From Lepidodermella squamata (taxonomy: Eukaryota; Animalia; Gastrotricha): a DNA stretch of 64,000 nt. Position 1 is the first letter of the stretch; the number at the start of each line of letters is the position of its first letter. The stretch covers positions 496,001-560,000 of the forward strand of contig JBLDXI010000029.1 of NCBI GenBank assembly GCA_047495785.1. The letters are read 5' to 3'. A program made the position numbers and the translations under genes. Shown here piece by piece: positions 22,094 to 56,820 of the stretch. Under the pieces are notes generated by a model, which worked only from the letters and a program-made list of their open reading frames with translations, did no database searches and was not told where the DNA came from.

Positions 22094-22099
22094 TTACGG

Positions 22100-22400
22100 C
22101 TCTATTATTCGACTTCCAAAAACATGAGCATCAGCTGGGGCCTAATCCTATAGGCCAGATTTTTATCCATCTCGGCCCATGTCGATTTACGCCCTTCGAG
22201 ATTTACGAGCCACTCTTCCTCCTCGCTTTAATCAATGTTTTAATGTTTGTTTAAGTCGCCTAATGCTTTGACAGAAAATTCACATATTTTGCAAGCGAAA
22301 GTGTCCTTAACTTCATCAAATTTCCAGTAAATATCCGGATATTCGCCCAATGCTGCTTTTTTCCAATTTATTTTGAGTAACACACTAGTGTTTTTTTTTT
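22100..22400 (-). pseudogene. Decayed zinc-finger (C2H2/BED-like) coding fragment
   Basis: FACKICEFSVKALGDLNKH followed by a stop/frameshift; abuts the piggyBac-like MITE. Confidence 0.35.
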
Positions 22401-27841: not shown

Positions 27842-29170
27842 TCATTGTGTCCGAAGTTGGTAGTCACCGTTTTGCGTGATATAACGCACCCATGGCAACG
27901 CTTGATAGCCTGATTTTTCAATGATCTTCAGATAGCGAACTTGAATACCAGACACCGTGAAGTAGGGAATTTCAAATCTGACCAAAATCGGCGGCCGGCC
28001 TTCCGTTTCTTCCGATTCAACACTAGGCAGGCTGAAGTGAGCACGAAGCAAGAACTCCTTACCACCCGGGAAGCTGCGAATCGACCAGATAACAGAATTC
28101 GTCTCCGGCACGTACTTGGCCGAGCCTGCGGTTGATTTGAACTTCGGCGAGTCGACATCCGCCGGCACTGGGATCACGATTTCAACGTTATTGGCCGTCG
28201 AACGGCGCTTGAACTGACTCTTCGCCTTGACCATAAATTCGATACGCGAATGCGCGTGGCGTTCTACGATGGACTCGACCCAAATCAACGGCTTCACCTG
28301 AGCTGATAAACGGTAGGACATCAACTCGAAATCGCCATCGGGCGGAATGAAAGAAATGGTGCGATCGTTTTCAAAACGCGTCAACCTAACGCACTGATGG
28401 AATTTCGTGTCTTCCAACTCAACAGCCTTAGCACCCTGCCTGCCACTGGTTTCGAATAGAATTTTATCGTTGAGGCCTAACCGAAGTTCCGGCATGCCCG
28501 ATAGGCGGACGTTCATTTTAACGGAACCGACGATTTCACTTCGCAGCACTTGACCAGATGCTGACACTAGCAAATTGACTGACTCAATTACGTCTAGGAA
28601 AACTTCGTTTTTGCGATATTTAATGCCTTCCGACCGCCATGAAACGGCGTTTGTAACGGCCATAGGAGGGCGGGGTATAATTTCCAGTTTTTGACCCTCC
28701 TGTGTGATAAATTCTTGTAGGATTTTGGAGTCTGTGGTCTGCGGGTAGCCGAAGTCCATCAACTCATCGAGAAGTTCGTAGACTACGACGAAGTTATCGC
28801 GAATACTCTCCTCCTCGACTTCTTTGAAATACTCGCCAAAAACCTGCGTGATTTTGTGCAGAAATGAAAATGCCATGGCAACGTTGCAATTGTGGCTCGT
28901 TGTAGCTACGACTGGAATAATAAAATAAAAAGCGATGAAAAAATGTAGGAATAAATTATGGGAAAAATTACCATAAATATTATTAAATTTGATGTACATA
29001 AAATTCATTTCCCCATGCTGCAAAATCGGGTTTATTGAGCCATCTTCTTCACGCTCCATCAAGATCGGGTAGAATTTTTCGATGATATTGACGTCGAAAT
29101 CACCGCGGTAACCACGGTAAATCAGCACTTTGCCCTTCAGATCGAGAATAAATATTGCAGAAATCGACAT
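27842..29170 (-). CDS. AP1M1: AP-1 adaptor complex mu-1 subunit; one 60-nt intron 28971-28912
   Basis: MSISAIFILDLKGK.., NAVSWRSEGIKYRKNEVFLDVIE, C-terminus IIEKSGYQALPWVRYITQNGDYQLR. Confidence 0.97.
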   Translation of the reverse strand: MSISAIFILDLKGKVLIYRGYRGDFDVNIIEKFYPILMEREEDGSINPILQHGEMNFMYIKFNNIYGNFSHNLFLHFFIAFYFIIPVVATTSHNCNVAMAFSFLHKITQVFGEYFKEVEEESIRDNFVVVYELLDELMDFGYPQTTDSKILQEFITQEGQKLEIIPRPPMAVTNAVSWRSEGIKYRKNEVFLDVIESVNLLVSASGQVLRSEIVGSVKMNVRLSGMPELRLGLNDKILFETSGRQGAKAVELEDTKFHQCVRLTRFENDRTISFIPPDGDFELMSYRLSAQVKPLIWVESIVERHAHSRIEFMVKAKSQFKRRSTANNVEIVIPVPADVDSPKFKSTAGSAKYVPETNSVIWSIRSFPGGKEFLLRAHFSLPSVESEETEGRPPILVRFEIPYFTVSGIQVRYLKIIEKSGYQALPWVRYITQNGDYQLRTQ

Positions 29171-30202
29171 TTTCAACTGAGGATAAATACGAGTAACACC
29201 CTAAAAATAAAAACAAATCCCAGTTAAATCATGATCAAGCTTTGTTTTTTATTTATTAACTTCATTCAAATACGCGAGCGAAAATACGCATCACACTGAA
29301 AAACGAGAAATCACAACAAAAATGTAAAAAAAATCGATTAGAATACGAGATCGTGGGATGAAAGTTGTCACGAGAATAAAAAATTCCAGAGATAGAATGC
29401 AACCAGGGTCGCGGTTTATTTGCGAGAATTCAAGAAAGATCAAGCTTTCCAAAATGCAGAAAAATTATATCTATTTCTATACTTCATTGGGACGAGCTGG
29501 CGGAGCGAACCATCAGAAGAATATTGACTAGTCGGATCCGACAACTAGGCTCGTGTAGCTCCCTCGCACCGGTACCTGCACTACCGTACCAAATGCTGAA
29601 GGCAAGCGATGGGCGCGATTTGTTGTTGACTGTTTAATTGCAGACGACTTTCAATATACCAACCCAGAGACCATAAGTTGGCGTGCCGCTAAGGTCGAGG
29701 TAAATCAGGAGAACGATCTGATGGTCTATGCTCTTACCGATAAGGAGAGTAATCCTCGGAAATATGCTCAGACCGATCAGTTGGCCAAAGACACATGTCA
29801 TTTTCACACTTTACACAATATTCTTCTAAGGACATTCTCTGCGAGACATTTTCTATCTCTATTGGATATTTCGATCTCTCTGAGATCATTTCGATCTGAA
29901 TTAATTTTCCTAATTAACTATCCTAATTAACCTAATACTCATAACTAACATGGAAGCGTCGACGTCCCAGGCCAACGCCAGCATTGCATTTAACATCAAT
30001 GAAGTGGAGGCCATTGCTGCTCGAGCACTAATTCCTGTTTGCAGCAGCCTGACAGGTGGCATCAATCAAGAATCAGGTTTCGCCAGATGGAGTGGCAAAT
30101 TGCTGATTCGAACGATAAGGTGAAAGGAAAGAGACGCTGAAATAGCCCAACTTAGTGATTAAGTGATTAATTAATTTTTGACAATTTTTTTTCATCTCCG
30201 GC

Positions 30203-31020
30203 TTGCGGGTCAAAACGCCACTTCTGCAAGACAATCAGGCTCACATATCGTACGATAAGGATGCCGAAGTCGCATCGCCGGCCGGATTTCGACGGTGCAT
30301 CGCCGATGTACTCATCGACGTATGGTGCAATGTCGAGCGGCCCGAGGATATCCCGTTCGTAGCAAGAGATGCCGCCGACCGCGCCATGCGACGGATGATG
30401 CTATTCTCAATCAGTCGCGGCGTCCGAGCGATGTTCGACCTAGGAGACGACTTGTGGGTCAATACGGAGCACCCATTTAGGGAGGCAAACCGATTAACAA
30501 CCGATTTGGCCAACCCGTCGTTCGAGCGGCGGGAACCGTGTTCGAATAAAGCGAGCCAGATCCATATATAGTAACATTAATTATTGATATCTATGATTAA
30601 TTCTGTGACCAATAGATGTTTTTGCTGTGGAGGTTATTTAGAATGTAACCATTTCATCCTAAGTATCCAAGTTACTGAACACTATTCAAACCAGATGAGA
30701 ACTTTAATAAATATCCCTTGTGCGAACCTTGTAATTTTATCAGGTTATACGATGGGGTGATCGAGATCACCGAGGAGTTCCACGCCGCAGAGGAGGGGAA
30801 GAAGAGAAGTGGCCGAGACAAGAACAGGCCAATAATCGCCGAGGAAGAGAAGGGGCGCGGAGGAGCCAATCAACCGATCGAAATATCAGATAAAGAGGCG
30901 CCTAAGGAGGAGCCGAAGGAGTTTCGCCAGAGCGGGCGACTACGGCGACAGGGCATTCCGTATCCGAACTACGCGTTGGAGCCGAAGAAGCTGCGTGGTA
31001 TATTTTCGGAAACCCTTTAG
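30203..31020 (+). pseudogene. Unknown ORF ('ELAER..RR' family) with acidic SIM-like tail, split by an LTR insertion at 30539-30756
   Basis: Removing 30539-30756 joins ..FERREP to VIEITEEFHAAEE.. in frame; the paralog at ~31465-31748 shows the uninterrupted junction DERQEPVIEVAEEF. Confidence 0.7.
30539..30742 (+). mobile_element. Short LTR (copia-type) followed by the start of a PBS
   Basis: TGTTCGAA...TTTTATCA termini, followed by GGTTAT; homologous to 44198-44411. Confidence 0.75.
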
Positions 31021-31841
31021 CGCATCCCTTTAGCGCAAGTATCGTCCAAATTTAATAATTTGGGAAAGTTATACCCAAGTTGCTACTGCCGAACTAGTTA
31101 ATGCAGTCTCTTATGAGCTTTAATATTTTTTCCCACACCACACTTAAATTGTATTCTTCAAGCGAATTGCTCAAACTAACGCGCGTAGTTTGTGTGGAGC
31201 CCTCGTAGACTACATCTACATTTATTTTGATATTTCGATTTTCGATCAAGGAATACTTCAAGACCGGACAATAACGTATGGCCTTGTTCCATACTGTGAT
31301 CATCGACTGGCCTTCCAGTGGCTGGTGAGGAAGGAACGTCGTGACACGGCGATGGCGAAAGCGAGCCACAGCCGGGGCTGAACCAGGACGCCGGACCGAA
31401 TGAACCGCGCACGGAGACATCCGCAAACACGATAGCGGACGACTCTGCTCCGCAAGGAGACATCGTGACACTCGACGAGCGGCAGGAACCGGTGATCGAG
31501 GTCGCCGAGGAGTTCCATGCCGCGGAGGAAAGAAGAAAGAGGAGCGGCCGGAATAAGAACAGGCCGATAATCGTCGAGGAAGAAGTGGAGCGCGGAGCGG
31601 CCGGTCACCCGATCGAGATATTAGATGACGAGGCATCGAAGGAGGAGCCGCGGGAATGCTAGCCGAGCGGGCGACCACGGCGAAGAGGTATCCCGTATCC
31701 AAACTACTGGTGGAGCCAAAAAAGTTGCGTGGTATATTTTCGGGTACCCGATAGCGTAAATAGCATAAAATTTTTCATGATTGTATCTATGTTGTTATGA
31801 AAACTATTTGAGGACAAATAGGACAGTGGAGGGGGAGTTAT

Positions 31842-34170
31842 GTGACCCGACAAGGAAACAAAGATCGTCGATCCACCGACAAACCAAAGGCGAAGATAGC
31901 AGTTCAAGATTGCGAATACAGCCTGATGGTATGTCATTTGTCGTTGCGCAACAAGTTTGTTCTTGACAGTGGGGCAAGTCAGCATATGGTTGCTGATAAG
32001 GAACCCATCCAAGGTTTTGCCCGAAAACACGCAACTAGTGAAATTAGGCAATGGTGAATCGAGTCGAGTCGAATTCATAGCAGACGCAATCAAGTTACGA
32101 ATGAAGTCACTCTTCTGTGACCGGGATCATACGAGACTACTTGAACCAACACCGCGGTATGCCAACACATCCAACAGACGAGGCTATGCGTGAACTAGCA
32201 GTCAGAAGAGTGTGGCTATAGCGCATTCTCGCAATGGGCGGATGGGTCGACGCGCTACTGTTAACGCCAGATGTTAACGATGCAGAGTGATCGTTACACA
32301 ACCGTGCTCCTGGCTGATGTCTTATACGTGCCAGATTTACAGTGCCATTTGTTTTCAGTAGGTCGTCAAGCTTGAAATTTTTCATTTTCCCTGTGACCTC
32401 GTTCCGAGTCAACTAGGACAAGGATGCTTACGCACGCACTGACGTCAATTCCACGACGATAATTCACTTCGGGCGGATCATCCAGCACCTCCATCGGACA
32501 TATAAATAGACTCCGTAGTAATGACAAAGACACACTCACTGATTAATATTTATGCGTTCGATTCACACAATATACGGCATCGGTCGACTTGTGTAACAGA
32601 ACCCACTTACATCCCTTCAGCAGAAAGTGGCCTATTCGTTTGAAGGAGGCAACGCAGGCTTCGTTCGATACACTTGCGATGATAAGAACAATCTGCCTTG
32701 TTTTTCGGGAGTCAGTTATCTCAATTTGACAATAATTGGTTCCGGATCTTATTGCCACTGATGTGCCACTGATTTTTGCAACTCCCGGCATTCGCAAACA
32801 CAATGCATGAAACCTCGAAAGTTTAATGGGCATAAAATTTACAATTTCCAAGGGAATTTTGCTGGAAGAGGAAGAAAAAATTCTGTAAATCGAGAAAGGA
32901 ATTTTAGGTGTCCCGAAAAATCGGGCAGTGGCCCGGGCTCACAGGGCCGTCAGTCAAAGAAGCAGACGCCATCAAGTTACGAATGAAGTCACTCTTCTGT
33001 GACCGGGATCATCCGAGACTACTTGAACCAACACCGCGGTATGCCAACACATCCAACAGACGAGGCTATGCGTGAACTAGCAGTCAGAAGAGTGTGGCTA
33101 TAGCGCATTCTCGCAATGGGCGGATGGGTCGACGCGCTACTGTTAACGCCAGATGTTAACGATGCAGAGTGATCGTTACACAACCGTGCTCCTGGCTGAT
33201 GTCTTATACGTGCCAGATTTACAGTGCCATTTGTTTTCAGTAGGTCGTCAAGCTTGAAATTTTTCATTTTCCCTGTGACCTCGTTCCGAGTCAACTAGGA
33301 CAAGGATGCTTACGCACGCACTGACGTCAATTCCACGACGATAATTCACTTCGGGCGGATCATCCAGCACCTCCATCGGACATATAAATAGACTCCGTAG
33401 TAATGACAAAGACACACTCACTGATTAATATTTATGCGTTCGATTCACACAATATACGGCATCGGTCGACTTGTGTAACAGAACCCACTTACATCCCTTC
33501 AGCAGAAAGTGGCCTATTCGTTTGAAGGAGGCAACGCAGGCTTCGTTCGATACACTTGCGATGATAAGAACAATCTGCCTTGTTTTTCGGGAGTCAGTTA
33601 TCTCAATTTGACAATAATTGGTTCCGGATCTTATTGCCACTGATGTGCCACTGATTTTTGCAACTCCCGGCATTCGCAAACACAATGCATGAAACCTCGA
33701 AAGTTTAATGGGCATAAAATTTACAATTTCCAAGGGAATTTTGCTGGAAGAGGAAGAAAAAATTCTGTAAATCGAGAAAGGAATTTTAGGTGTCCCGAAA
33801 AATCGGGCAGTGGCCCGGGCTCACAGGGCCGTCAGTCAAAGAAGCAGACGCCATCAAGTTACGAATGAAGTCACTCTTCTGTGACCGGGATCATCCGAGA
33901 CTACTTGAACCAACATCGCGGCATGCCAACACATCCAACAGACGATGCTATGCGTGAACTAGCCGAGCGAGCAGTCAGAAGAGTGTGGCTGCAGCGCATT
34001 CTCGCAATGGGCGGATGGGTCGACGCGTTACTGTTAACGCCAGATGTGATCGTTACACAACCGTGCTCCTGACTGACGTCTTATATGTGCCAGATATACA
34101 GTGCCATTTGTTTTCAGTAGGAGCTGTGCTCAACAAGCAGAAGAGTCTAGCATTGAGTATCGTGAACCTC
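31842..34170 (+). pseudogene. Ty1/copia aspartic protease fragments, interrupted and triplicated
   Basis: FVLDSGASQHM (~31957), LVKLGNG, and LLTDVLYVPDIQCHLFSVG (~34070; also ~32310, ~33190); purine tract AGTGGAGGGGGAG at ~31825. Confidence 0.85.
32079..34121 (+). repeat. 882-bp tandem duplication (32079-32960, 32961-33842) plus a diverged partial third copy (33843-34121)
   Basis: Identical ORFs at 32137/33019 and 32543/33425; each unit starts AGCAGACGC. Confidence 0.95.
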
Positions 34171-35333
34171 AGTCTTTTAAATACATAACCCCACACGCAG
34201 GTTACATGCCCACTCTAATTCTAATTCTAATTATCCCTGTGATGGGATTCAAGCTAATTTCTTATCATGAGTGCGAGCGGAAGGAACTAAGATTAAGGCG
34301 CGGGATGTTGCTTTTACAGTCCTGGCCAGATCAGAGAGCTTTCCGTTTCGTTATTCGAACCAGGCAGGGCTGCGGACGAGATTCAGGCTAAATTTCAAAG
34401 AAATATGATCAACAAAATGGTGAGTTGTTGCACACTTACCGATCCGATCCGTATGATAACCATTCGCAACGCAGCAGATGTCAAATAAACTAAAATCCTC
34501 TAAAAATATAAAAAGATACAAACCCGAATCATAAGTCGCGTCTTCTTTTTATTTCAAAATTGTCTCGGAAAAAAACGAAAACATGATAAAACATTGAGCA
34601 TACAATCTCAGTTTAAACGTGAGAAAATCACGAATTGAGCGTGAGAATTTGCGATAGCATAGAAAATCATATTTTACAGAATAAACTTCATAAAGGAGTA
34701 GTGAATTCGTCCCGATCGATGAACAGAACGCGATTGCATATAACAAAACAAGCAGCTTGAAAATTTTCAAATGAATATTTCGGCATCTGTGCGATAAAAT
34801 GCAGCCGGAAATAAAAGCCTTGAGCGCTGCGCGAAAATCGATAATAATATGCCGACGTGGCCACATAAATTCAATTATAATTTCATGCACTAAATTGAGC
34901 TTTAGCCGCAGAAACACACCCACGTAAAAGAATCCCTTTAAGAGCAAATAACTACCGGCTATGATAGAATATTGAAAATAACCTAGATGTGATATTGCTG
35001 GGCTTATATTGCTGCTCACAGCCTAATCAGCCCCACCCAACCCGGCCGGCAGTTCAAGTTCCAGTCTATAACGCAGGGTTAATATTCGATCGCTTCAAAG
35101 CAACCTAGTCGCTTTTCCTTCGGTACTGATTTGCGACCTTGAATCTGTATATAATAACAAGGCTCTCTGCAGAATCAAAATCTGAATTGATCAATCTTGA
35201 TGAATCTGAAAGAATCCCTGAAAATTACCGACAATTAATAAACTACCTTGACGCGAAATACTGACACGAAATATATTTGCAAATTCTTTCGCACCAATAC
35301 ACTAATTCTAGAAGAAAGGTTCCTCCACCATCA

Positions 35334-36575
35334 ATGGCGATCTTTGAGATGAACAGTGAACAGGCTCATGCTGCCCAAGCTTCTCTTCCTGTTAGTGTGA
35401 CTGAGATTCTGATGATAATTACATCGGGATATTTCGCACTGGGCATACATATCATGGATTTAGCACCATACTCGGCTGCGTTCTTGGGCTAACAGGAGGA
35501 TTAGTAGAGTCAATTATCTACATGCCGATGAAATCCACGGCCTACAAGTTGACGCGCATCGCGGCCTCGCAATTCGAAGTGTTCACGTACTGCGATTGCA
35601 ACGTTCGACCACGTCGAACCGCTGCTGCTTTTCCAGCCTTGACTCCCGACCGTTCTATGCCGTCCCATCGCGTCCGATGTCGCGAATTGACGCTGCGCCA
35701 CCGACCATTGAATCATATATATCCGCGAAAAAACTACGGTTCGAATCCTCTCGATCGTTTCACTGGCTAATCTTGAACACTACACCAACATTTACGATTC
35801 AGGAAATTTCGAATTCGATGCTCTGGAATGGAATCAAGACTGCGATTCAGCATCATCTACTAGTCTTGATCAGCCAAGGATTTTCGATCCTATTTCATCT
35901 ATCTCTGATATGGCCTGTGAATGCTGTCTTTCAAAGTGCGAGCCATCAATTTTCCTTGACAACGACCAGCTCGCTAGCAGCTATAAATTTTTATTTTCAC
36001 GCTAACACCCTTCTCAACATTTTACGGAATATAATCTAGCTACATCTGCTTCAATCGTTGGACATGATTTATGGAAGAGCATCCTAAATGATAACACCAC
36101 GCTCCTTATCCGCCACGACGATTTATGGTCGTCCCTTTGCCACTCAATTATTTTTACTGAAAGTGATTACCTGTTGGATGATGGCCACGATGATAGCCCT
36201 AACCTCATTATGTCTGGCCTGGAAGAAAGTTTCTGGTATGGCCCAACGGCACATCCTACCAACACCGAAGGCCAATATAACTACATCCAACATTTATTTT
36301 ACGATTTGTTAAAAAACTTTAATGGTGTCAACGTAAACCTGCGGCACATATTCTACCTTTTACTTCGGGCAGGTCGTAGGGCCTCAGTAGATATGCAGAA
36401 CACCGTGCCTCCACCCGATCAACGCGCTAAGAAAATTCCATGGGCATCAGTCATCGATGTTCTTTTACAATTAACGCCGGATTCATGGGCGATGGGAAAC
36501 CATCCTTTTTGGGCAGCTAGCTATCCCCTGACGCTAAACGACGATATTAGCGGAACGCTTGGCGGAACGATATAG
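35334..36575 (+). pseudogene. Unknown 'ORF-X' family, copy 1 (fragmented)
   Basis: EGQYNYIQHLFYDLLKNFNGVNVNLRHIFYLLLRAGRR; homologous to 38748-39320 and ~39700-40050. Confidence 0.6.
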
Positions 36576-37171
36576 GGATACGATTCAAGATAGAATGATT
36601 GCAGCCCTCTATCGAGTACTGGTAGCCCTCGACGTACCGGAAATACCGATGGTTATCAGGAGGATTAGTTGAGTAAACATGCCGATGAAATCCACGGCCT
36701 ACAAGTTGACGCGCATCGCGGCCTCGCAATTCGAAGTGTTCACGTACTGCGATTGCAACGTTCGACCACGTCGAACCGCTGCTGCTTTTCCAGCCTTGAC
36801 TCCCGACCGTTCTATGCCGTCCCATCGCGTCCGATGTCGCGAATTGACGCTGCGCCACCGACCATTGAATCATATATATCCGCGAAAAAACTACGGTTCG
36901 AATCCTCTCGATCGTTTCACTGGCTCATCTTGACCACTACACCAACATTTATGATTCAGTAAATTTCGAATTCGATGCTTTGGAATGGAATTTTCAAGAC
37001 TGCGATTCAGCTTCTTCTACCAGTCTTGATCAGCCAGGGATTTTCGATCCTATTACATCTATCTCTGAGCGGCCTGTGAATGCTGTCTTTCGAAGTGCGA
37101 ACCACCAATTTTCCTTGACAACGACCAGCTCGCTAGCAGCTATACATTTTGATATTTCACGCTAACACCCT
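35493..37171 (+). repeat. ~515-bp direct duplication (35493-36011 / 36657-37171)
   Basis: Near-identical ORF translations at 35522/36679 and 35510/36547. Confidence 0.92.
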
Positions 37172-37174
37172 GCA

Positions 37175-38217
37175 CCCTGCATCCCAATTTTTTGTCTACT
37201 GTATTCCATCTTCGCCGGAGGCCTACGAACTGAGCCACTTATTTCATATCGACTGCGACATTAGTGCGCCCTCAAATAATGTAACAAGCGACGTGCTCTG
37301 CGGTCGTGCTCTCCGTCATCGCCATCGTTACTGTTGCGCTTCTAGCTTTCAAAATCCAGAAAATAACTCGCTGGCTCCAAAATTTCCGTAGGCCAACAAA
37401 TTTTGCAGAAGGAGAATTCGATGCGCATCAATTTAGTGAGCAGTTTAAAGAAATTGAGGAGTTCCATTAGCAAAAGAATGCTTAAAATTCTTCAACTTCT
37501 TGAAACTGCTCATTAAATTGATACGCATCGAATTCTCCTTCTGGCCATCCTGATTTCGATCTGAAAATATGAACGACCGATGATTGATTCTTGAATGACC
37601 TGCATAACACCTTCAGCTGAAGCCTACGAAAGGTGCCGCTTGTTGCATGTCGACTGCAACATTTGTCCGCCGTCAACAACCACCTCTATCATTACTTCTC
37701 CAAGCCCGTTGCCGCCTTCTCCTGCTGAGACGGGAATATCGAAGCTGGAAATGGGTCTCCTCTCAGCTGGGATCGTGGCAGCAGTGATCATTGTTATCAT
37801 TATTTCCACTGTTTTAATTATGTTTATTCGCCGACGAAGGCGTTATTCCCGAATTGAGCAAAGCCCCCCGCTATGCTTGTTCGCCTCTAACGAAGAGGCC
37901 GAGGGAAATGCCGAAGTTACGGCATAAAATTGTTATTTTATTACTTTTACTTGCCATTATTATCTTGCCGAGGATGCTTTGATCAAATGCCGTCTTGAAT
38001 TAAGCCCTGCGTTCCAATTTGTTGTCTACTGTATTCCATCTTCGCCGGAGGCCTACGAACTGAGCCACTTGTTTCATATCGACTGCGACATTAGTGCGCC
38101 CTCAAATAATGTAACAAGCAACGGGCGCTGCGGTCGTGCTCTCCGTCATCGCCATCGTTACTGTTGCGCTTCTAGCTTACAAAATCCAGAAAATAACTCG
38201 CTGGCTCCAAAATTTCA
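37175..38217 (+). pseudogene. Fragments of a small single-pass membrane protein family (three paralogous pieces; 37175-37387 duplicated at 38005-38217)
   Basis: CIPSSPEAYELSHLFHIDCDI (x2) and CITPSAEAYERCRLLHVDCNI, each followed by a hydrophobic TM (AVVLSVIAIVTVALLAF in a shifted frame; LLSAGIVAAVIIVIIISTVLIMFIRRRRR). Confidence 0.6.
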
Positions 38218-38242
38218 TTAGTCGAAGTCGGCTCAGAAAATA

Positions 38243-38381
38243 GTTGGTTCCGAACATTTTCAGGTTATGGGCCTGCGCTTCTATGGCTGATATATTTGCT
38301 TTTACTATCAAACGTTTGGCTCATGGGAGCGAATGGCGAGTTTGGGTGGTTCAGTTCCAATATCTGATAGACACTCATGAT
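38243..38381 (+). mobile_element. Copia 5' fragment: LTR end, PBS, gag N-terminus
   Basis: ..TTTTCA|GGTTATGGGCCT (copia-type internal tRNA-iMet PBS) at 38263, then MADIFAFTIKRLAHGSEWRVWVVQFQYLI from 38283. Confidence 0.75.
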
Positions 38382-38747
38382 ACACAATTGCTTAGCATCA
38401 TCTAATTTTCTCCATCTTCAATACAACTAATAAGGAAAACAAGCAAGTGCTTCTCGGAGCGTTAAATTCGTCGATTTCGGATCTGGCTAGGGAAATCAAC
38501 GTCACCCGGTCTTTACGGCAGAAAAAACCAACAGCTGAGAGTCAAAATTCAAAACCGAGGAAGTAAGCAAAGAATCCATCTATATTCCAAAAGTCGACAT
38601 TGATGAAATCTCATGGTCGGAATTTGGTCTAGCAATAGCAAGCTGCGTATTGCATTTATTCATATTCTTCAAATTCTTCAAATGCACTGTACCGGCAAAT
38701 CGGACAACTATCGAATTTTCAAATTATTTTCGAACCACCAACACAAC

Positions 38748-39320
38748 ATGGCCGAATACAACACCGCCTACGAAACCACGCACGAGGTCTTGCAAGGCAA
38801 ATCGCTGATTTTGGCCTCGTTTCCATCCAATATTCTTTCCGTTCACTTCTTAGGCGCAGGGATTTTGCTGAAAAAGCAATATATGATTTTTGGTCCTCGA
38901 TCACATGTTACTTTCATATATAACAAGCGCATTCTTCTATGCAGCATAGCGAATGGAGACGTATGCGCCCAAGACAATGAGAAGTATGATGTAAATCTGG
39001 CTTATCCCTTCCCTAGCGCGATTGAGATGTCAAAATGGGTCAGCCTCCTTAAAGACAACGATCCGTTCTATCAACGCACCGACAATCTGTGGTCGATTTC
39101 TCGCTATGCCATGCACTATGAAGACCAATACCTTTTCAACGACGACAAGGATTTGAACACATTTCAGATCACGCCGGGGCGTAATTTTCAATTCGACCAA
39201 GATTTTATCACTGCCTTGCGCGCCCACACCGGCCGCTATGTTTTCATTGAGTATCTGGTTCATGATTTCCTCAAAAATTTCAAGGGTCAACAACTGATCA
39301 TGCGAAACATGTTCTTCTAA
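38748..39320 (+). pseudogene. Unknown 'ORF-X' family, copy 2 (longest open copy)
   Basis: MAEYNTAYE...GRYVFIEYLVHDFLKNFKGQQLIMRNMFF; follows an env-tail-like fragment. Confidence 0.6.
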
Positions 39321-39699
39321 GAACGTGAATTGTCTAAGCATCTAAGCATTGTAGAGGAAATTGTGAAGAATTTTATACGTCGGAAAACGTGTCCCGTTTT
39401 CATCATCGATTCGGATTCACTCTCATCTGAGGAGGTCTACGAAAAAGCGGCCTCGTTTTTATAAGCGTTCATTTTTTCACGTTGATCAAAAACGAAGAGT
39501 AATGGATCCGAACGTTTCTCGAACTCGGACAATCGCTATATCGATACAGCATTATTAGAATGAGCAGTGTGCAAACATATCCTGTTCAGCAACACCTTCA
39601 AGATCGAAATTTGACTACCATATCGCAGGACGGGAAAGGCGACTCCAAAATACTGGCGTTCAGGCAGGAGGAATTTCAACTACGACAGCCATAGCTACG

Positions 39700-40050
39700 G
39701 ATTTTCTTATTTTCCGAGCAACGAACATGGAGAACAAGCAAGGGACCTTTAGTGAATCTCCAAGTCCTCAGTATGCCACTCGGTAGTTCTTCATGAATCT
39801 GATTACTTGATTGATGAAGGATTCCAGAATCCCCTACCTTAGTACGTGTGGTCTCGAGCAAACCTTTTGGTACAGCATAACAACACCCCTTAGTTATAAC
39901 GAAGGACAATATAGTTTCATCCAACACATATTTTATGATTTGCTCAAGAACTTCCAACGGCGACAGGATAACGCTGCGGCTCATCTTTTACTTGTTACAT
40001 CGGGCAGGTCGTAGGGTAACAGTGGAGATCGAAAACACCGTGAATCTCCA
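39700..40050 (+). pseudogene. Unknown 'ORF-X' family, copy 3
   Basis: GLEQTFWYSITTPLSYNEGQYSFIQHIFYDLLKNF. Confidence 0.6.
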
Positions 40051-40197
40051 AGTTATCGCCTAATGGATATGGTTCGAGCATTGCTTTTAATGGCCCTGTT
40101 ACCCAAGAGATTTTGGGCTGAAGCGCGAGCTACAAATTTTTTTGAGAAATCGAATTGTCTCCGTATTCAAGTGAGAAGTTCCGTATTTCAGATTATA

Positions 40198-40313
40198 CAG
40201 GGCGTTCGCGTAATAATACTCTGGGTGAGCTAAAAATAGCTACAAAAAAGCTCTAATGAATGCAAAAAGTAGCAAAGCTATTTTTAGAAGAGTATTATTA
40301 CGCGAACACCCTG
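40198..40313. mobile_element. 116-bp Tc1/mariner MITE
   Basis: TA|CAGGGCGTTCGCGTAATAATACTCT ... AGAGTATTATTACGCGAACACCCTG|TA (25-bp TIR, 1 mismatch). Confidence 0.9.
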
Positions 40314-40522
40314 TACCATCCACCCGATGATACAGATAACACTGCAATTTCATATAAAGCTTTGCTTAAACATTTTGAGCCGATGAATAATGTAACTAAG
40401 TCCATCTTTTGCCAATCACTAGCCAATATTCGGATGCGCATTAGCGACAAAATTCACGACTTCTATCTCGAGCATCAAGACCGTTTTTTTACGCCTCAGT
40501 ACCACGAAAATTCGCGACTGAA

Positions 40523-40963
40523 TTGCGTATAAACCGCCTAATTTTGAGTATCTTAACAATTACTACACTTTCATCCAAAGCGAAAAGCATGCTTGTGATG
40601 CTAGAAACTGAAATGGTAACACTAGGCAGCGAAATAAATGCCACGCGGTTGCAAATGAGTGACCTAAATCGCATATCTTCAGGCATCGTCTCCGATGCAG
40701 ACAATTTTATTACCAACTTCTATCAACCAAGTGTCGACACGATAGCATTAATTGCGTTTTCATTCTCTATCGCTTCTTTAGTAATGAATTTATGTTTCGG
40801 TACGCAGCAAGTTGTTCGTAATATTATTCCTTCTGATAATTTTGAGATGTTGGCAACAGAAATAAGCCAGCCAATAACGCCAGCCAATAACGCTATGCAG
40901 CTAAACATAGAACCAACAATTTCTACATTATTTCAGCCCCCCGCCCCCACGCTCCTCCGCTAA
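40523..40963 (+). pseudogene. Env-like C-terminal fragment (heptad repeat + TM + tail)
   Basis: MLETEMVTLGSEINATRLQMSDL heptads, then IALIAFSFSIASLVMNLCF TM; homologous pieces at 35139 and 38402. Confidence 0.5.
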
Positions 40964-41739
40964 TACCTTCTTTACCCTCACCCAGCAATCTCCAGGCCAA
41001 ATTCATAGGCCATTTTTCACAGCTAAAGCTCATTTTTAGCGAATGACAATACAGCATGATTTTATATATTTGAAGTGATACATTTCCGAAATCCCATTAT
41101 ATTGAGAAAACGACTAAATCTGTACCTATCTGTACCAAAATCAAATAATTTCATGAGATTTAAATCGCGCCGCAATTTTTTAATCGCGAAAAAAATCTGT
41201 TTTATGAAAATGATTTGCTGCTTAATTTGCCAAGTTGTTGTGTTCATCGCATTCGGTACGAATCTCAGTTCAGTTATAACTCACACCTACTGAAGGAAGC
41301 ATCGTAGAAATAAAAGGGCAGACCAGAATGAGAATGGCAATAAAAAGACTAGTAACAGAATAACATGTTCGCTAAGGCCAAAGGTCAAACTTGCCAAACG
41401 TGTAACGAAAGTTAGCTGGACTAATTACTACAGCAACAATCAGCAACCATATTCAATTGAGATCGAACGATGATTGATGATCGATTGATAAAATCCACGG
41501 ATATTTCAACGGCAAATATTGTTGCAGATAACTGCAGCAGTTAGAGCAAATTGAAAATGTCTCTGATCCAGAGGTTGTGAGCTGCTGAAATTGAACAATG
41601 CACAGTTCAAGTTCGAATTATGTTCAAGTCTTTCACGAAAATTACCTCGTATGTTCAATTTTCCAAGAGTGCTATTCCTTGGTTGCCACTCATTTTAGTA
41701 GCCATCGATCAGCACCATTCGAGATATTTTTGTAGGAGC

Positions 41740-42630
41740 AGAATGGCAGAATTGAGAAGTCATACTGGGACTGACAGACGTAATCCATTGGACGGAAAGA
41801 AGAAGGTAAAACATGTGTTAATCCATCTTTCAAAGCCTGTGAGCTGCTGTAAGAAAAATTGTCAGGATAAAATCAGCATGAATGCAAATAATGCGACTTA
41901 CAAGCATGTCAAAGCTCGGCGAGAAAATTCCGGGCAGCTATGCACTTCGCAATCAATAAATAAAACAGATTGCATCCGCCGTCCACGCAAATCGTTCAAA
42001 GTTAGGTTAACATCTAAAATTGAGGAAAAAAATGCAATGAATTCTTTTCATTAGTATTTTGAGAATTAGGTATAGCGTTTATCGCCAAAATTGAGCTAAG
42101 GCAACATATAAACACAACAGTTCAACAGTTTAAACAGATAAACAAAGTATCCATGTAGTAGTTTATTGATAAAACAATGTATCAGGCCTATAGACCCAAG
42201 TAAAATACGCGATGGATAAAATTTATTTCAGCCAGCTATCGGCAGATTGAAAAAGACCATTCTCTGACATTTCAAGGCATCGGCACATGCCCGTTTACCT
42301 ACATTTTCAAATTACGTGGAAAAGATATTGGCATCACTATCCGTCGTTAAATAATCTCAATGGTCAACTTTTATCTGGATTAAAGATATAAATTAACCGA
42401 AACTTGAGCGTAGCTTCAGCTTTAGATGGTAAACAAGCCGAATTCAATAGCAGGAGCAGTAAGAGATAGAATTCATTCCTTTTGTTGTATATTGTATGAA
42501 TCAAAGCATTTTGCTCCCAATAAAGATGTCTAAATAATAGATTGCAGTGGTGTTTTACAGCAACTCAGCGACTAATCAAGAACGATCACTGCTAAAAGTT
42601 ACATACAGATGCAAATCTGCCAAGGCTGCA
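41740..42630 (+). pseudogene. Possible decayed DNA-transposon (Sola1-like) ORF N-terminus
   Basis: RRNPLDGKKKVK...PVSCCKKNCQDKIS pattern; heavily degraded downstream. Confidence 0.3.
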
Positions 42631-42686
42631 GGACTGAATCCGCCAGTAAGGGAGGCGGATGCCATAAGGTCATTTTTCGTTGATCG

Positions 42687-43283
42687 TTGATCGCGCGATT
42701 TATGAGAAACGGCCGACCGAGCGACGATCCGGAGGCCAAAGCAGCGCTGGCAGATCTAGCCGGGCTAAAACCATCTGAAATTGAGGCTAGTTTGCAAATT
42801 AGATCAGCCTATCAGCAACCGAACGAGTCAGTGCGCGACTTTTACAGAGGAATCAGGCGCCTGCTAAGCCAATTCATGGCTCCAACCGCGGAGGGCTACG
42901 ACCGACAGCTCAAAAGAGAGTTCACGGCAGGCTTGCGAACACATCTGCGCGAAGCCTTACATCGCGGGGCACGACCGATGCCGTAAGCACAGATGTACTC
43001 AAACGATCAGTCGAAGAAGACCGCATCACAATCGCGAGGGTGCAACTGTAAACGCATGGACGTTCGAGCTGCTCTCGACCAGCTTAGCCGGCGGTTAGAC
43101 GAGGTATGTGACCACGTCAATAGCGTCGGCGAAATGGTCGCAAATCTTCGCGCCGGAGTAAGGGGAGACCGCGGCGGAGATAGGTACGAACAGCAAAGGT
43201 ATGATAATACAAACAAGAATAATCCTAGCGACTGATGTTTCTACCGCCAAAACCCGGGACATCTCAAGCAATGTGACTAACAA
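42687..43283 (+). pseudogene. Ty3/gypsy-type gag C-terminal half (capsid MHR-like motif + degenerate zinc knuckle)
   Basis: QQPNESVRDFYRGIRRL..FTAGLRTHLR; after the TGA ending at 43235, in-frame CFYRQNPGHLKQC. Confidence 0.75.
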
Positions 43284-43307
43284 AATTGTCGCGCAACAAC
43301 ACGACCA

Positions 43308-44959
43308 ATGAAAGCCGAGGAATCTGCACTGGAAACAATCGACGGGAAGTTTTCGATTCTCAGCCGCCAAACAGACACATTGGCGGGCGAACTGAAACGG
43401 TTTGAGGACGACATGCTAGCGGTCGTTAATGGCATTCGCGACCAGGGCGCGGAATCAGCCAAGCGTGACGCGCAGATGGTCGAGACATTATTCCGCATCA
43501 CCGAGCGAGCACTGCAACTCATCCGGTTCCAAAATCTCGGATTCATTGAAAAAGCGGCGAGGAGTTCAGCCTTAAGTCTGTCTGATCTCGAAATAAAAAC
43601 TAGGGAAGGAATCATCGACCATGTCATGACGCTGCAAGGGCCCAAAGTAGCAACATCAAATCTACTTTTAGACGGTGTTACATTGTTGGTGAAACCAACC
43701 ATAGTATTTCAATCGGACGGACTAGGAGTCGACGCCGAGCTCCAAGCGTTACTCTCTGCAAAAATTCCAATAATACAACAGGAATGCAGAATTTTCACAC
43801 TAGATTTCATGGCACTGCAAACGAACCAGTCCTGTCTGTCGTCGCCTAGATCAATCTATCAGGACATGGTAATCCTAGAGTGCCCAGAAATGGATTTATC
43901 ACTAATTCCAAGGACAAGTCTTCAGAGATGTCAGACCATAAAAGCAAACACATTGGTCTGCCCCACTGCTTTCAGCGCCATCAAGCTGAAACCAATGTGG
44001 CTGAACGACATCGATCCAACGGGCGACCGAATTGAGGTCGATACGCTTTCTCATCGCTCCGTCGATGATGAATGGTGCCGATCGATGCTCGACCTCGTTT
44101 ACATAGCGGACCACAAAGTGCTCGTAACAAGAAACACGAAGGCGACGAGCATGTGGGCAAGCGATAACACTTTCATAACCGACAGCAAGGGCATCGTTGT
44201 TCGAACATAGCGAGCCAAGATCAATACTTGGTAACATTATTGATTAGTGATTCATCCCGTGTATCCCAGAGATATGTTTGCTGTGGAGGTTACTTAGAGT
44301 GTAACCATGTCATTCTAAGTTTCTAGGCTACAAGTACTATTTAAGCCATGTGAAATATATTGAAAGTACCCTTAATAAAGTATCCCTTGTGTGAAACTTG
44401 CAATTTTATCATCGTAAATCTCAAAGCAGGCACTATCATTACTCTGCGCTGCGGCGATTACCTAGAAACGGCAAACTCGAAAGTGAAATCGCCACTTTCA
44501 TGCAAACGGGACATCGACCGAATGAGGGCAGAAGTAATAATGGTAACACAGGACGAATCGATCGCCATCACAACGATGGATCGTTCGGAAATCCCTGATC
44601 AGAGTCAAAAATTCGACCAGATAGCCGAACGACTCGCCAAGAAGCAATGGGCGAGAGATTTCGATGAGTCCAAGGAGCAATTGCGGAACTTGACCAGCGA
44701 AATGAAGCGCATAAGAGACAAAATCAGCCTGCAAAACGGCAGAAATGCAGCAGAGTTGCACAAAGTCCGGCAGCAAACCGAGGAAGAAAGCTGGTGGAGT
44801 AGATTTTGGACGGCGTTGACAGCTGGTTTTACGATTATCGTAACTCTGGTGGTCATCAGCCTGATAATACAGTTAATAATAAGCAAACTTCATCCTCGCG
44901 ACGTACGAACTTCAGTTGTCAGCTTATTCCGACCAGGCTCGTACCGTGGCCATCGATGA
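43308..44959 (+). pseudogene. Envelope/fusion glycoprotein-like ORF (N-terminally truncated) interrupted by a solo LTR
   Basis: Heptad region, Cys-spaced ectodomain, second heptad region, WWSRFW + TM + tail; excising 44198-44415 fuses the two ORFs (..SKGIV|NLKAGT..). Confidence 0.75.
44198..44411 (+). mobile_element. Solo LTR with target-site duplication
   Basis: TG..CA termini flanked by TCGT/TCGT (ATCGT if the terminal A is shared). Confidence 0.85.
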
Positions 44960-46629
44960 CGCAGTCACCAGAGCGTTCGGCAGCAATTATTGGCGCCCGA
45001 TCCGGAGTTGGAAGCTTTGGTTGAGTGGTTCGCGACGGCGCCCGTGATCGGAATGTGCCGCAGGATGACGCTGATGTCGCAATTATTCATACCGGTTACA
45101 GTTAGATCGCATTTTGCTTTCTCTTTGTTAGATGATTGAATCGGTTTATGATTCCGATATATTCGGCAAATTTCATCAAAATGTGCTCTGCGATGTAGCG
45201 CCCTTGAGCCTAATCCGATATCATCTACTTGATCCCAATCTTCCGATTCGTATGCGTCGGCTTGCTCATTCGCAATTTCTCCTGAATTATTATCGAGCGA
45301 ATCGTTTTAATCAAATCGTCCGAAGATCTGAAGTGTCCGGCTATCATGTCAATGACATGTCCTCAGATCAAATTTACATCTAGATCTAAATTTATGAGGC
45401 ATAAGCGAAATTCCTCGACTCGCTGACGGCGGGCAGTTGAAAGCTAACTTGTGAGTTGGTTTAAGCGAATTAGGAGACGGAGTTCCGATAATGGCCAATC
45501 ACATTCGACAATCACGAGTGCCGATGTGCACTTGAAGAATTCGTCATGCTCAAACTTCTCCAACGATATCACATACCTTGGCAAGAAATTTCCCAATTAG
45601 GAATGCAAAACATATTTGACAAAAACAACTTACAAGATGTCTCCATTCGGCCCAATGCTTCCAGGTGCAAAATGCTGAAAATCAGCTCATATTCTTTCAA
45701 AAATGTCTAAATAAGAAAATGAAACTTCAAGCATTGCAATACTTTACTGGTTTTTTCTCAGTGGCTTTAAATATAAAAAATTTAGAAGCAGAAGAATCAC
45801 AAGCAACCGATAAGTGTTCACCGAAATATCATAACAGTAAAATTGAGAAGATTACAAATATGTATGCCAGCATGGGATAGACGTCCTTTTCATTCACGAT
45901 ATTGGTACTGAGTAGCAAGCTGGTATTTCTAGGTCTAAGTATAAAGCCGAGGGTGATAATTCGAAAACGATCTTAAGCGATTCTGCGGTTTCAAATCTCA
46001 AACAGCTGCCTCGGCGTTATAGACAACAGAAAATGATATGGTATGTTAAATAAAGGGTTTTAGCTCTTGATTGATTCACGCTCTCCCATCCCCGTTCCAT
46101 CAATAACGCTATTTACTTCGCTTGTTCACCCTCCCATAGTATTAACTGATTCCTCAACAGCTAAGTTAAAAGAAGCGGTCAAGAGAGTTGGGGAGTAGCA
46201 AGATCAGCGATTTGGTGGGTTCGCGAAACATAGTGACTCTAAAGCCTCGCTGATTCTGCAAAATTCTGCAGCAGAGGAAGTAAAGACTGCCGTCATTGAT
46301 CTGTCTTCAAAAACTGGCTGATGACACCGAAGTGAGACTTCAACCACTTGCTAAACGTCGATTCGTCGGCTCCATAACTTACGTTATAAAATGTAGTGGT
46401 TGTGGGCCGTGGTACAGCGCAAATTCGGCCCTGATTCGTCAGTACACTACATCCCTTCCTTTAGAACACCGCATCGAGTCGTACAATGGCTTCCTTCAGG
46501 GCTCCACTTTCACAGCCCGTCGAAAGACTGTCAACGGATCGAAAGTACGCGATTACTTGACGTTGGACCGCTACGCTGGTGGAGGTCATCAATCACCTCT
46601 AGGGTTATTACCATACCCCTATATACCTG

Positions 46630-46866
46630 TGTGAGAGAAGTAATAAATACGCTATCAGAGTTATACAGAAGTCTTCGTTGGTTCCGAACATAACATTTTC
46701 AGCTTATGGGCCTGCTACGGCAGATAAATCTGCATTTACTATCAAACGTTTGGCTCATGTGAGCGAATGGCGAGTTTGGGTTGTTCAATTTCAAAATCTG
46801 CTACACGCTCATGAATTGTACGGCCCAATCTTCGGCAAATCCGTGGCTGAAACAGTCGTAAACTAA
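46630..46866 (+). mobile_element. Second copia 5' fragment: LTR end, PBS, gag N-terminus
   Basis: AATAAA at 46642, ..TTTTCA|GCTTATGGGCCT at 46702, ADKSAFTIKRLAHVSEWRVWVVQFQNLLHAHELYG. Confidence 0.75.
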
Positions 46867-47272
46867 AGTTGAAAATCTCCTATCCGTCTGTTCCCTAGTC
46901 TAAATTAGTCTAAAAGCTGGTATTCACGTCAGCCAAGAGGAAGAATTAATGATGACATTTTCAAGGCTTATTCGTGCTCGTTTTCTTTGTGTTTCAAAAA
47001 CAAATTACAATGCAAATTGTTGCATCGATTGAGGCAATGACCCCGACAAAGACGCTAAGCACGCGAGAACCGCAGAATCACATTAGATCAGTAAATTTGA
47101 TTAAAAATAACCAGTCGAGATTGATTTTCGCAACTGTCCTAAATCTAAGATAAATTCATCCCAATTTCTCTCGAACTAGTGAAAACAGAATCAAATGAGA
47201 TTTGACCAGAAATTCCATGATAAAACCCCAGCACCCCCCATTCCCCTCCTAAATATTCCCATAATGTTGACC

Positions 47273-48044
47273 CTAGTTTTGATGGCTTCCGCCAGCAACA
47301 GGTGGTGCGACAACGAATCGCCGCTGAGTGTACCATAGGAAAGCAGAAAGTGCGACGGTCGAGATTGAAACGACCGGTGCGAAAATGGCAGTTGGAAATT
47401 GGCCATGTCGCAGGCACTTGTAGCCGTAATAGCCCTCGGAACACGGGCATTCGAACAGAGCCGGACCTCGAGGAACGCAATAAGAGCTGTTCGGGTACTC
47501 GGCCAGCTCGATACACGCGTCCGAGTGGCGCTCGCAATAGGTAACTTGCGTTTTGCAGACCGTGTAAGTCATATCGGTGTTGTTTTTGACCGAGTCCCAG
47601 GCGAGGTATGTCGCACCGGGGCACTCAACCGGAATCGGTACAGTCAGATAGTTCAACATTGTGTAGTTGTAGAAATCGCTTTCATTTGCAGCTACGACTG
47701 AATTTCCATCCAGCAGCCTAAACATTAAGGAATCTATGTAAAATAAAATAGAAAAAATGCCTTGAAACTCACATGTACTCAACGGTCAAACGATTATCAT
47801 TAGGAATGGCAGTCTGAAGGATATGGAAAGTCGAAAGCTTGCAATTCGAATAGTCCAGGCCGAGAATGGTGTTATTCGACCCAACACAGCACCGGTTGGT
47901 GATCTGACCACTTTTTCCTGAGCAAAAGGTCGAAAATTCAGGCCGGTTCGACGTCAGCGGTTCGCAGGACTTTGTTGAACAAAAGTCTGGAGCAGCTTGA
48001 GCAAAACTAACGGCCGCGATGAGGAATGCAATGCCTTGCCACAT
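47273..48044 (-). CDS. ATRAID: All-trans retinoic acid-induced differentiation factor (APR-3); intron 47772-47718
   Basis: Signal peptide, RCC..ILGLDYSNC, EGF-like C..CVPRGP..CPCSEGYYGYKCLR.GQFP, TM ending LWYTQRR. Confidence 0.88.
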
Positions 48045-48477
48045 TTTAATCAACAAAAATTCTATCGAAAATCGAGCAAAAAATGAAGATCAAATCTTGT
48101 TTTAAAAACACAATAACGGAAAAAGCAACAAGCCATGTCATGATTCGGTGCGTCATGAAGAAATATATTTATAGGCGGTCGGTTTTCGCACGCCTAAAAA
48201 GTGTGAATTCCAAATGTACGCAACACGAGACTAGAAATTTGCATAATTAACGATCCGCATTACTCCATTCGCGCCCAGCGCTCAAATGCAATTAATCAAG
48301 TGTAAAACCACAGGTATGAGAGAAAGAGGGTGTTGAGAACAGCCAACGAGAAAGCGCAACTTGCAGTAGTAAAAATTACAAACAATTTCATTTCACCGCG
48401 TTATTTCGTAAATTTTTAATGAGAGCTAATAAGAGATGGTAAGTAGCCAAAAAAGTGACGGTAAAAACTGTCGCAAA

Positions 48478-56018: not shown

Positions 56019-56820
<802 letters not shown>

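What the first reader, a model, noticed from the sequence alone, without database searches (positions are those of the whole stretch)
29470..46870. 17-kb uni-strand archive of retroelement fragments, antisense to the flanking gene run (flamenco-like piRNA cluster candidate)
Seen: between ATRAID and AP1M1 (both minus strand) lies a mosaic of 0.1-1.6 kb pieces from several divergent elements: two copia LTR-PBS-gag starts, copia protease, gypsy-like gag, env, three env-tail-like pieces and several recurring unknown ORFs. Pieces are abruptly joined, no element is complete, and every piece I could orient is on + except one ~65-bp inverted fragment at 37479-37543. Known: uni-strand piRNA clusters such as Drosophila flamenco are dense, strand-biased TE fragments enriched for env-encoding gypsy elements. 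Inference: minus-strand transcription running out of the RAB33-ALDH4A1-HDAC3-ATRAID unit would read all fragments antisense, making this a TE-silencing memory locus embedded in a housekeeping (possibly polycistronic) transcription unit.
Basis: partly seen in the sequence, partly recalled or inferred. Interest (0 to 1): 0.85.

Follow-up and report, generated by a model that had tools for sequence, protein, structure and literature searches.

The report
Antisense retroelement archive inside an operon
In an intron-poor animal, 17 kb of broken retroelement pieces, whose orientable parts nearly all face backwards, sit between two housekeeping genes, and the upstream gene's RNA runs on into them, so the stretch likely supplies transposon-silencing small RNAs, which were not seen here.

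Summary
The mosaic is real. Short-read contigs reproduce 66% of it with 0-1 differences. The pieces I could orient (copia protease, two primer-binding-site starts, gypsy-type gag, F-type env, an unknown family) lie on +. The same leader is joined to ATRAID and AP1M1, which indicates spliced-leader trans-splicing. The ATRAID message enters the archive and has a poly(A) end at 45726. RNA continues to about 42057, antisense to env and gag. All 3 listed splices inside the archive are minus-strand introns. No small-RNA data or genome were available, so piRNAs and PIWI genes are untested. It is not flamenco: it is small, copia pieces share the bias, and no promoter of its own is shown. It matches read-through clusters downstream of genes (mammalian piC-DoGs, mosquito core clusters). 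The scan has noted such loci before in at least 18 other genomes. New here is the setting, a spacer of a trans-spliced gene run, with RNA evidence for the strand. Best reading: antisense small-RNA source (0.55). Main rival: a tolerated insertion site with no silencing role (0.3).

The parts
47273..48063 (-).
   Evidence: Leader loose end at 48063 and CT..AC joint 47716/47772 in one X2 contig; translation
45726..47272 (-). Main ATRAID 3' UTR; its last 1.15 kb (46870-45726) is archive read antisense; poly(A) end at 45726
   Evidence: X2 contig of 1666 nt runs from the leader to 46357; 18-nt T loose end at 45726, AGTAAA 17 nt upstream; X3 pieces 45731-46138, 46187-46472, 46656-46950
42057..45725 (-). 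RNA beyond the first poly(A) site, antisense to env and gag, with two small introns (about 44860-44909 and 45574-45630); likely distal 3' UTR isoform
   Evidence: X2 contigs 42057-43748, 43719-44734, 44972-45573; CT..AC joints at depth 50 and 59; contig stops on a 4-T run with GATAAA upstream, no tail listed
29250..34500 (-). Second RNA-covered stretch; likely a non-coding unit starting near a strong acceptor at 34500/34490
   Evidence: X2 contig 29897-31724; CT..AC joint 34387/34440 (depth 11.7, only 20 letters on the short side); top-scoring acceptor of 901 minus-strand AGs; AATAAA at 29248-29257
27842..29202 (-). AP1M1-like gene, trans-spliced at about 29202 with the same leader
   Evidence: 24-nt loose end; Pfam PF00928; intron 28912-28971 spliced
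46630..46863 (+). Copia-type LTR end, primer-binding site and gag start
   Evidence: Motif at 46702; 83% like 38243-38380; gag call is a recalled motif, no Pfam hit
43281..44956 (+). F-type (class I) envelope gene fragment, lacking about the first 200 residues of its relatives and interrupted at 44198-44411
   Evidence: second part matches the family at E 8e-4
44198..44411 (+). Solo-LTR-like element (TG...CA) with TCGT on both flanks: an insertion made in place
   Evidence: 73% like 30539-30742, which is followed by GGTTAT
42684..43232 (+). Gypsy-type gag fragment
   Evidence: PF03732 E 0.04, below the curated cut-off
40529..40960 (+). Coiled-coil plus membrane-anchor tail, family not established
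   Evidence: tblastn E 0.095 to P0121; profile E 0.16
40198..40315 (.). 118-bp inverted-repeat element flanked by TA, high-copy elsewhere
   Evidence: many X1 loose ends at 40196 and 40315
40054..40173 (+). Copia integrase-like bit
   Evidence: Recalled motif found at 40114; no Pfam hit
35405..40042 (+). Unknown 'U' family: related pieces at 35405-36572, 36651-37171, 38607-39500, 39765-40042, with membrane-anchor tails at 37175-37467, 37595-37927, 38005-38216
   Evidence: 32-63% amino-acid identity between copies in + frames; no database hit
38243..38405 (+). Copia-type LTR end, primer-binding site and gag start
   Evidence: Motif at 38263; gag call recalled
37406..37543 (.). Local inverted repeat (the one inverted fragment)
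   Evidence: 81% over 140 nt
31944..34121 (+). Copia protease pieces inside an 882-bp tandem duplication (97% and 88%)
   Evidence: PF22936; X1 depth about twofold at 32002-32668
30748..31756 (+). Two related charged ORF pieces (79% DNA identity), likely pol tails (recalled resemblance)
   Evidence: no Pfam support
30539..30742 (+). LTR-like element (TG...CA) followed by the first bases of a primer-binding site

Best explanation
The ATRAID message of a trans-spliced gene run carries retroelement fragments antisense in its 3' end and reads on past its first poly(A) site, and these RNAs likely feed a small-RNA pathway (piRNAs if the animal has PIWI) that would silence the matching elements elsewhere. 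Shown: fragment orientation, leader joining on ATRAID and AP1M1, poly(A) at 45726, spliced minus-strand RNA to about 42057, and RNA cover of 29.3-36 kb. Inferred: the locus grew by repeated insertion in place, then deletion and local duplication; trans-splicing lets AP1M1 keep its 5' end however long the spacer grows; antisense pieces were kept because they make guides.
For: 3 of 3 listed splices in the archive are CT..AC on +, that is GT-AG on the minus strand. One contig joins leader, spliced ATRAID and 514 nt of archive. The spliced minus RNA holds no convincing ORF besides ATRAID; the others overlap + strand ORFs or are 111 codons or shorter. About eight separately oriented pieces or families are all on +; if independent, the chance is about 2 x 0.5^8 = 0.008 (my count). 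A solo-LTR-like element with a flanking 4-bp repeat shows at least one separate insertion in the same direction. Two pieces have 92-94% identical relatives at 10-20 times the flanking depth in X1 (32622-32766, 36014-36464), so possible targets exist. The neighbouring 11-kb intergenic zone is full of inverted-repeat elements and has no long ORF, whereas the archive holds one small one. Host-type acceptors are enriched, not depleted, on the transcribed strand: 15 against 6-7 expected, 0 of 200 shuffles reach it; plus strand and control zone at expectation. The layout with a proximal and a distal poly(A) site matches piC-DoGs (PMC11615739, passages) and the Tirant 3' UTR cases (PMC13226689, abstract and Discussion).
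Against: No small RNA seen; PIWI genes untested (no genome). An earlier unchecked note calls this genome nematode-like, and most nematode lineages lack piRNAs (PMC4323106, abstract). The multi-copy relative of the U piece is abundant in the RNA run (depth 420-526), so it is not fully silenced there. The best-covered part (gag, env) showed no clear multi-copy relative at 90% identity or more (X1 depth 81-152). In mouse, read-through and antisense content also occur at genes that make no piRNAs (PMC11615739, passages). All strand evidence comes from one run's contigs; 16 of 31 joints and 5 of 11 loose ends were not shown. The RNA is only mildly U-rich (0.30-0.31).
Confidence: 0.55

Rival explanations
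1. The spacer is only a tolerated landing site: sense insertions are removed because their poly(A) and splice signals cut the host transcript, antisense ones stay and decay, and the read-through RNA does nothing.
For: Known for endogenous retroviruses in human introns (PMC1794541, abstract). Needs no small RNA. + has 16 AATAAA against 10 on -. Fragments are short and decayed, and the U relative is still abundant in RNA.
Against: Neither AATAAA count departs from shuffles (10 against 8.2 on -), and acceptors are enriched on the transcribed strand, where this model expects depletion. It does not explain 17 kb in a run whose other spacers are 0.1-0.9 kb, nor the scarcity of inverted-repeat elements, which have no strand.
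Confidence: 0.3
2. The archive is one composite mobile element (a non-autonomous LTR chimera made by template switching, or a capturing element) that inserted once, so all pieces point one way by mechanism.
For: Abrupt joints; no reverse transcriptase or RNase H piece found; a 9-bp microhomology at the tandem duplication joint.
Against: No terminal direct or inverted repeat, no shared 9-mer between the borders, no strong hairpin with CTRR end. Most of the archive is at single-copy depth in X1. One insertion in place with a flanking repeat. Pieces come from copia, gypsy-type and unknown families.
Confidence: 0.1
3. The mosaic is an assembly artefact.
For: No listed record spans the whole stretch, and X1 may be the source sample.
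Against: Seven X1 contigs match 11.6 of 17.4 kb with 0-1 differences across many joints, and X2, from another study, has contigs of 1.0-1.8 kb across joints.
Confidence: 0.03

Closest known systems
piC-DoGs, piRNA clusters downstream of genes in mouse, human and hamster (PMC11615739; 12 passages read)
   Same: Dense transposon fragments just downstream of a gene, antisense to it; spliced transcript from the host gene that passes the first poly(A) site.
   Different: piRNAs are shown there and not here. This locus is 17 kb, is closed by a second housekeeping gene and lies in a trans-spliced gene run.
Mosquito core piRNA clusters made by read-through (bioRxiv 10.1101/2022.08.22.504762; 12 passages read)
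   Same: No own promoter marks at the cluster start; read-through from an upstream gene; antisense foreign fragments; polyadenylated.
   Different: Enriched in non-retroviral viral pieces there, LTR-element pieces here; small RNAs untested here.
Antisense Tirant insertions in host 3' UTRs of Drosophila (PMC13226689; abstract and Discussion read)
   Same: Antisense retroelement sequence in a host 3' UTR, including a less abundant distal isoform.
   Different: Single recent insertions there; here many decayed pieces of several families, and part lies in the main 3' UTR.
Drosophila flamenco and flam-like unistrand clusters (PMC10643416; 12 passages read)
   Same: One-strand array with env-bearing sequence; spliced transcript.
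   Different: 227-1085 kb, discrete promoters and Gypsy-only bias there; 17 kb, read-through and co-oriented copia pieces here.
Antisense bias of intronic endogenous retroviruses (PMC1794541; abstract only)
   Same: Elements face against host transcription.
   Different: There they lie in introns and are spliced out; here they are in spliced, polyadenylated RNA.

Membership tests
flamenco / flam-like unistrand cluster | Dense transposon fragments antisense to transcription | tested here: met
   60% of bases assigned
flamenco / flam-like unistrand cluster | Discrete promoter of its own | tested here: inconclusive
   Right part is continuous with the ATRAID message; a second start near 34.5-35.3 kb is possible but not shown
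flamenco / flam-like unistrand cluster | Strand bias driven by Gypsy elements only | tested here: not met
   Copia protease and copia-type primer-binding-site pieces share the orientation
flamenco / flam-like unistrand cluster | Size of hundreds of kb | tested here: not met
   17.4 kb between two genes
piC-DoG / read-through piRNA cluster | RNA extends beyond the host gene's first poly(A) site | tested here: met
   Poly(A) end at 45726, spliced minus-strand contigs beyond it to 42057; that they are one molecule with ATRAID is inferred
piC-DoG / read-through piRNA cluster | Dense antisense transposon fragments right behind the gene | tested here: met
   First piece begins 410 nt behind the ATRAID stop
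piC-DoG / read-through piRNA cluster | Distal poly(A) site | tested here: inconclusive
   Contig stops at 42057 on a 4-T run with GATAAA upstream; no tail among the 6 of 11 loose ends shown
piC-DoG / read-through piRNA cluster | PIWI-bound, 1U-biased, phased small RNAs from the locus | not testable with these tools
   Only contigs of 4 runs were offered
piC-DoG / read-through piRNA cluster | PIWI pathway present in the organism | not testable with these tools
   No genome held; lineage unresolved
spliced-leader operon | Same non-genomic leader on separate mRNAs at AG acceptors | tested here: met
   Identical loose ends at 29202 (24 nt) and 48063 (14 nt), one contig each
spliced-leader operon | Short gap between upstream 3' end and downstream acceptor | tested here: met
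   HDAC3 contig ends at 48155, 92 nt from the ATRAID acceptor; no tail listed for that end
spliced-leader operon | One primary transcript from ATRAID through to AP1M1 | tested here: inconclusive
   All 30 bins have depth, but only 0.07-9 at 36.4-41.8 kb
spliced-leader operon | Leader RNA gene with Sm-binding site | not testable with these tools
   No genome held

The most novel reading that the evidence does not exclude
Trans-spliced operons carry transposon immunity as non-coding cistrons. The spacer between two housekeeping genes has become a string of poly(A)-and-acceptor modules (45726 then acceptor 45707; 42057 then acceptor 42014; acceptor 34500 to AATAAA 29250 then the AP1M1 acceptor), each releasing a leader-capped antisense RNA that is cut into silencing guides. 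Operon spacers would then be built-in transposon traps in leader-splicing animals.
Probability: 0.2. Interest if true: 0.8.

Novelty: new variant of a known kind. Interest (0 to 1): 0.52.

Why it matters
Read-through antisense clusters are known in mammals and mosquitoes. If this one makes small RNAs, it shows the same defence in a lineage with no named relative in the protein database, and inside a trans-spliced gene run, where the downstream gene may not be harmed by a growing spacer. At 17 kb, with mapped poly(A) and splice sites, it is small enough to test directly how a 3' UTR insertion grows into a cluster. I found no paper on a piRNA source inside an operon in two searches (2 listings each, none on this).

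Tried and rejected
No whole genome was held, so genome-wide strand bias, copy number and PIWI genes could not be checked. Run search: no RNA holder listed on record; X2 proved to be RNA by its spliced joints; X4 had nothing laid. No Rfam family or tRNA in the window. U family: no hit in Pfam, ESM Atlas, protein search among longer proteins (36) or viral contigs; its fold was unusable (pLDDT 37). Env: no relative in viral contigs, no sequence match in PDB (44), relatives unnamed and without Pfam hits; the model is low-confidence overall (pLDDT 52), though the top matches in both libraries are F-type or other viral glycoproteins. No full-length copia relative found. ATRAID relatives in metagenomes (6 loci, 33-42%) share no neighbours with this window, so there is no synteny test. 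The leader sequence was not found in the paper library and the lineage stays open; acceptors here end mostly in TAG, unlike the TTTCAG typical of C. elegans (recalled). My idea that 30572-30745 and its relative in env are + strand introns is rejected: X2 contigs cross both unspliced and they have LTR-like ends. The paralog-pair strand test favoured + in 6 of 7 pairs, but it also favoured + for the non-coding LTR-like pair, so it is weak. A six-frame Pfam scan reading through stops was not obtained, so short reverse transcriptase or RNase H remnants may be missed. The bacterial promoter scan does not apply to an animal. Depth figures from contigs are no copy number or expression level and are used only as hints.
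Full report
Setting. The window is from an intron-poor animal with no named close relative: the best match to its ALDH4A1 is an unnamed protein at 68%, and named animals of several phyla lie at about 59-63%. No genome was held. The other spacers in this run are 347, 904 and 92 nt. The ATRAID-AP1M1 spacer is 18 kb.

Is the mosaic real? Run X1 gave seven listed contigs that match 11.6 of the 17.4 kb with 0-1 differences, at depths of 74-95, like the flanking genes (the 66% is my sum of table 8). X1 may be the source sample and no listed record spans the whole. X2, from another study, has 114 of 126 records at 99% identity or more, with contigs of 1.0-1.8 kb across joints. An assembly artefact is unlikely.

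What the pieces are. Pfam found a copia-type protease and, weakly, a baculovirus F domain among 148 ORFs, all on + (3 of 86 against 0 of 62). A scan of 20 chosen + pieces added a weak gag hit. The 309-codon ORF at 43281 has 8 relatives of 476-769 aa. Those that are full length show a basic cleavage-like site, conserved cysteines and a membrane anchor, and the best one folds like F-type fusion proteins (top PDB match E 1.3e-9). The window's copy lacks about the first 200 residues and is interrupted by a 214-bp TG...CA element with TCGT on both sides. A relative of that element at 30539-30742 is followed by the first bases of a primer-binding site, which orients both on +. Two fuller primer-binding sites lie on + and none on -. 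An unknown family occurs in three diverged copies on + and has no database match. All 10 dispersed repeat pairs are direct. Against a clean picture: ORFs of 100 codons tie at 16 on each strand, 40% of the bases are unassigned, and several labels rest on recalled motifs.

How it grew. No terminal repeats or capture-element ends were found at the borders. The solo-LTR-like element with its flanking repeat shows an insertion in place. Local duplications of 882, 525 and 212 bp at 94-97% show rearrangement within the locus. I infer repeated insertion followed by deletion and duplication, not one composite element.

Transcription. X2 is RNA: it skips the AP1M1, ATRAID and HDAC3 introns. The same non-genomic letters are joined at 29202 and at 48063, both at AG acceptors just before a start codon, which indicates spliced-leader trans-splicing (one contig each). 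The HDAC3 contig ends 92 nt before the ATRAID acceptor. One 1666-nt contig runs from the leader through spliced ATRAID to 46357, inside the archive. An untemplated tail marks a minus-strand poly(A) site at 45726, so the main ATRAID 3' UTR already carries a copia-type start antisense. Beyond it, contigs continue to 42057 with two minus-strand introns, antisense to env and gag. A third minus-strand intron lies at 34388-34439, with weaker support (20 letters on the short side). No + strand splice is listed; 16 of 31 joints were not shown. Depth is 58-73 at 42.4-45.8 kb, 0.07-9 at 36.4-41.8 kb and mostly 17-42 at 29.1-35.8 kb. The tool warns that such depths do not rank expression, and the middle part may be DNA in the library. 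So two antisense RNA domains are supported and one 17-kb precursor is not shown.

Signals. AATAAA is not depleted on the minus strand (10 against 8.2). Acceptor-like sites, scored with a matrix from 13 host sites of which 8 were predicted from sequence, are enriched on it (15 against 6-7, 0 of 200 shuffles), but not on + or in the control zone 14.5-25.8 kb. Three of the 15 overlap at 34490-34500, and A-rich retroelement strands could add to the excess. High-scoring acceptors lie 19 nt after the 45726 site and 43 nt after the 42057 end. No leader was seen at them among the 6 of 11 loose ends shown, so this modular reading is a hint only.

Mechanism. The best fit is a read-through antisense locus that likely supplies silencing small RNAs (0.55). 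In Drosophila, antisense fragments in a host 3' UTR are enough to make piRNAs, and natural cases lie in less abundant distal isoforms (PMC13226689, abstract and Discussion). Mammalian piC-DoGs and mosquito core clusters have the same layout (PMC11615739 and bioRxiv 10.1101/2022.08.22.504762, passages). The passive model, selection against sense insertions only (PMC1794541, abstract), stays open at 0.3. It fits the strand bias but fits less well the size, the scarcity of inverted-repeat elements and the acceptor excess. Against silencing: the multi-copy relative of the U piece is abundant in X2, and gag and env show no clear multi-copy target at 90% identity. If the animal is a nematode outside the C. 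elegans group, as an unchecked note suggests for this genome, piRNAs would be unlikely and an RdRP- or Dicer-based route more likely (PMC4323106, abstract). I could not place the lineage.

Novelty. The kind is known, and the scan has 105 notes on flamenco-like candidates in at least 18 genomes. The variant here is the position in the spacer of a trans-spliced gene run, with strand, poly(A) site and splices read from RNA. Two literature searches for that combination gave nothing relevant. Supplements of the cited papers were not read. It should be filed as working like a piC-DoG, with membership unproven, and not as flamenco.

Noticed in passing
window 29202 and 48063: A spliced-leader-like sequence of at least 24 nt that two text searches of the paper library did not find; possibly an undescribed leader family. 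Similar acceptors precede the ALDH4A1, HDAC3 and RAB33 start codons (sequence only).
   Followed up: partly
window 35405-40042: Unknown membrane-anchored protein family with no database match; a 92%-identical relative has about 20 times the flanking depth in X1 and depth 420-526 in the RNA run. It could be an extra gene of an active element, a viral insert or a host gene family.
   Followed up: partly
window 37338-38004: Summed X1 depth of 6270 in this bin: a short, very high-copy piece that I did not locate.
   Followed up: no
window 35053-41689: Ten listed 'opposite strands' joints in X2 at depth 4-14, most of them short fold-backs; library artefact or double-stranded RNA, not resolved.
   Followed up: no
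window 14500-25800: 11-kb zone of nested inverted-repeat elements (336-bp arms at 16531/18225, 73-bp arms at 19013/19400, 31-bp arms 5.6 kb apart at 15572/21252) and a 370-bp satellite-like repeat; no long ORF.
   Followed up: partly
window 40198-40315 and 5796-5867: The small inverted-repeat element in the archive matches a stretch at 5796-5867 (74%), and its ends begin like those of the 15572-21252 element.
   Followed up: partly
window 24420-26880: A + strand kinase-like gene (PF00069) that appears to have a frameshift near 26400-26490; it ends facing AP1M1.
   Followed up: no
window 10853-13759 and 52204-53805: Long single-exon reading frames (969 codons with PDZ and C1 domains; the whole ALDH4A1), with introns elsewhere mostly 50-60 nt: a strongly intron-reduced genome.
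   Followed up: no
window 55030-56020: Divergent arrangement: the minus-strand run and a plus-strand run (short-chain dehydrogenase, carboxypeptidase) start about 1 kb apart, a likely shared promoter region.
   Followed up: no
L001-L006: ATRAID relatives in AT-rich metagenome contigs, apparently as one exon, beside an Ost-alpha transporter gene and an alcohol dehydrogenase gene in L005; no synteny with this window.
   Followed up: yes
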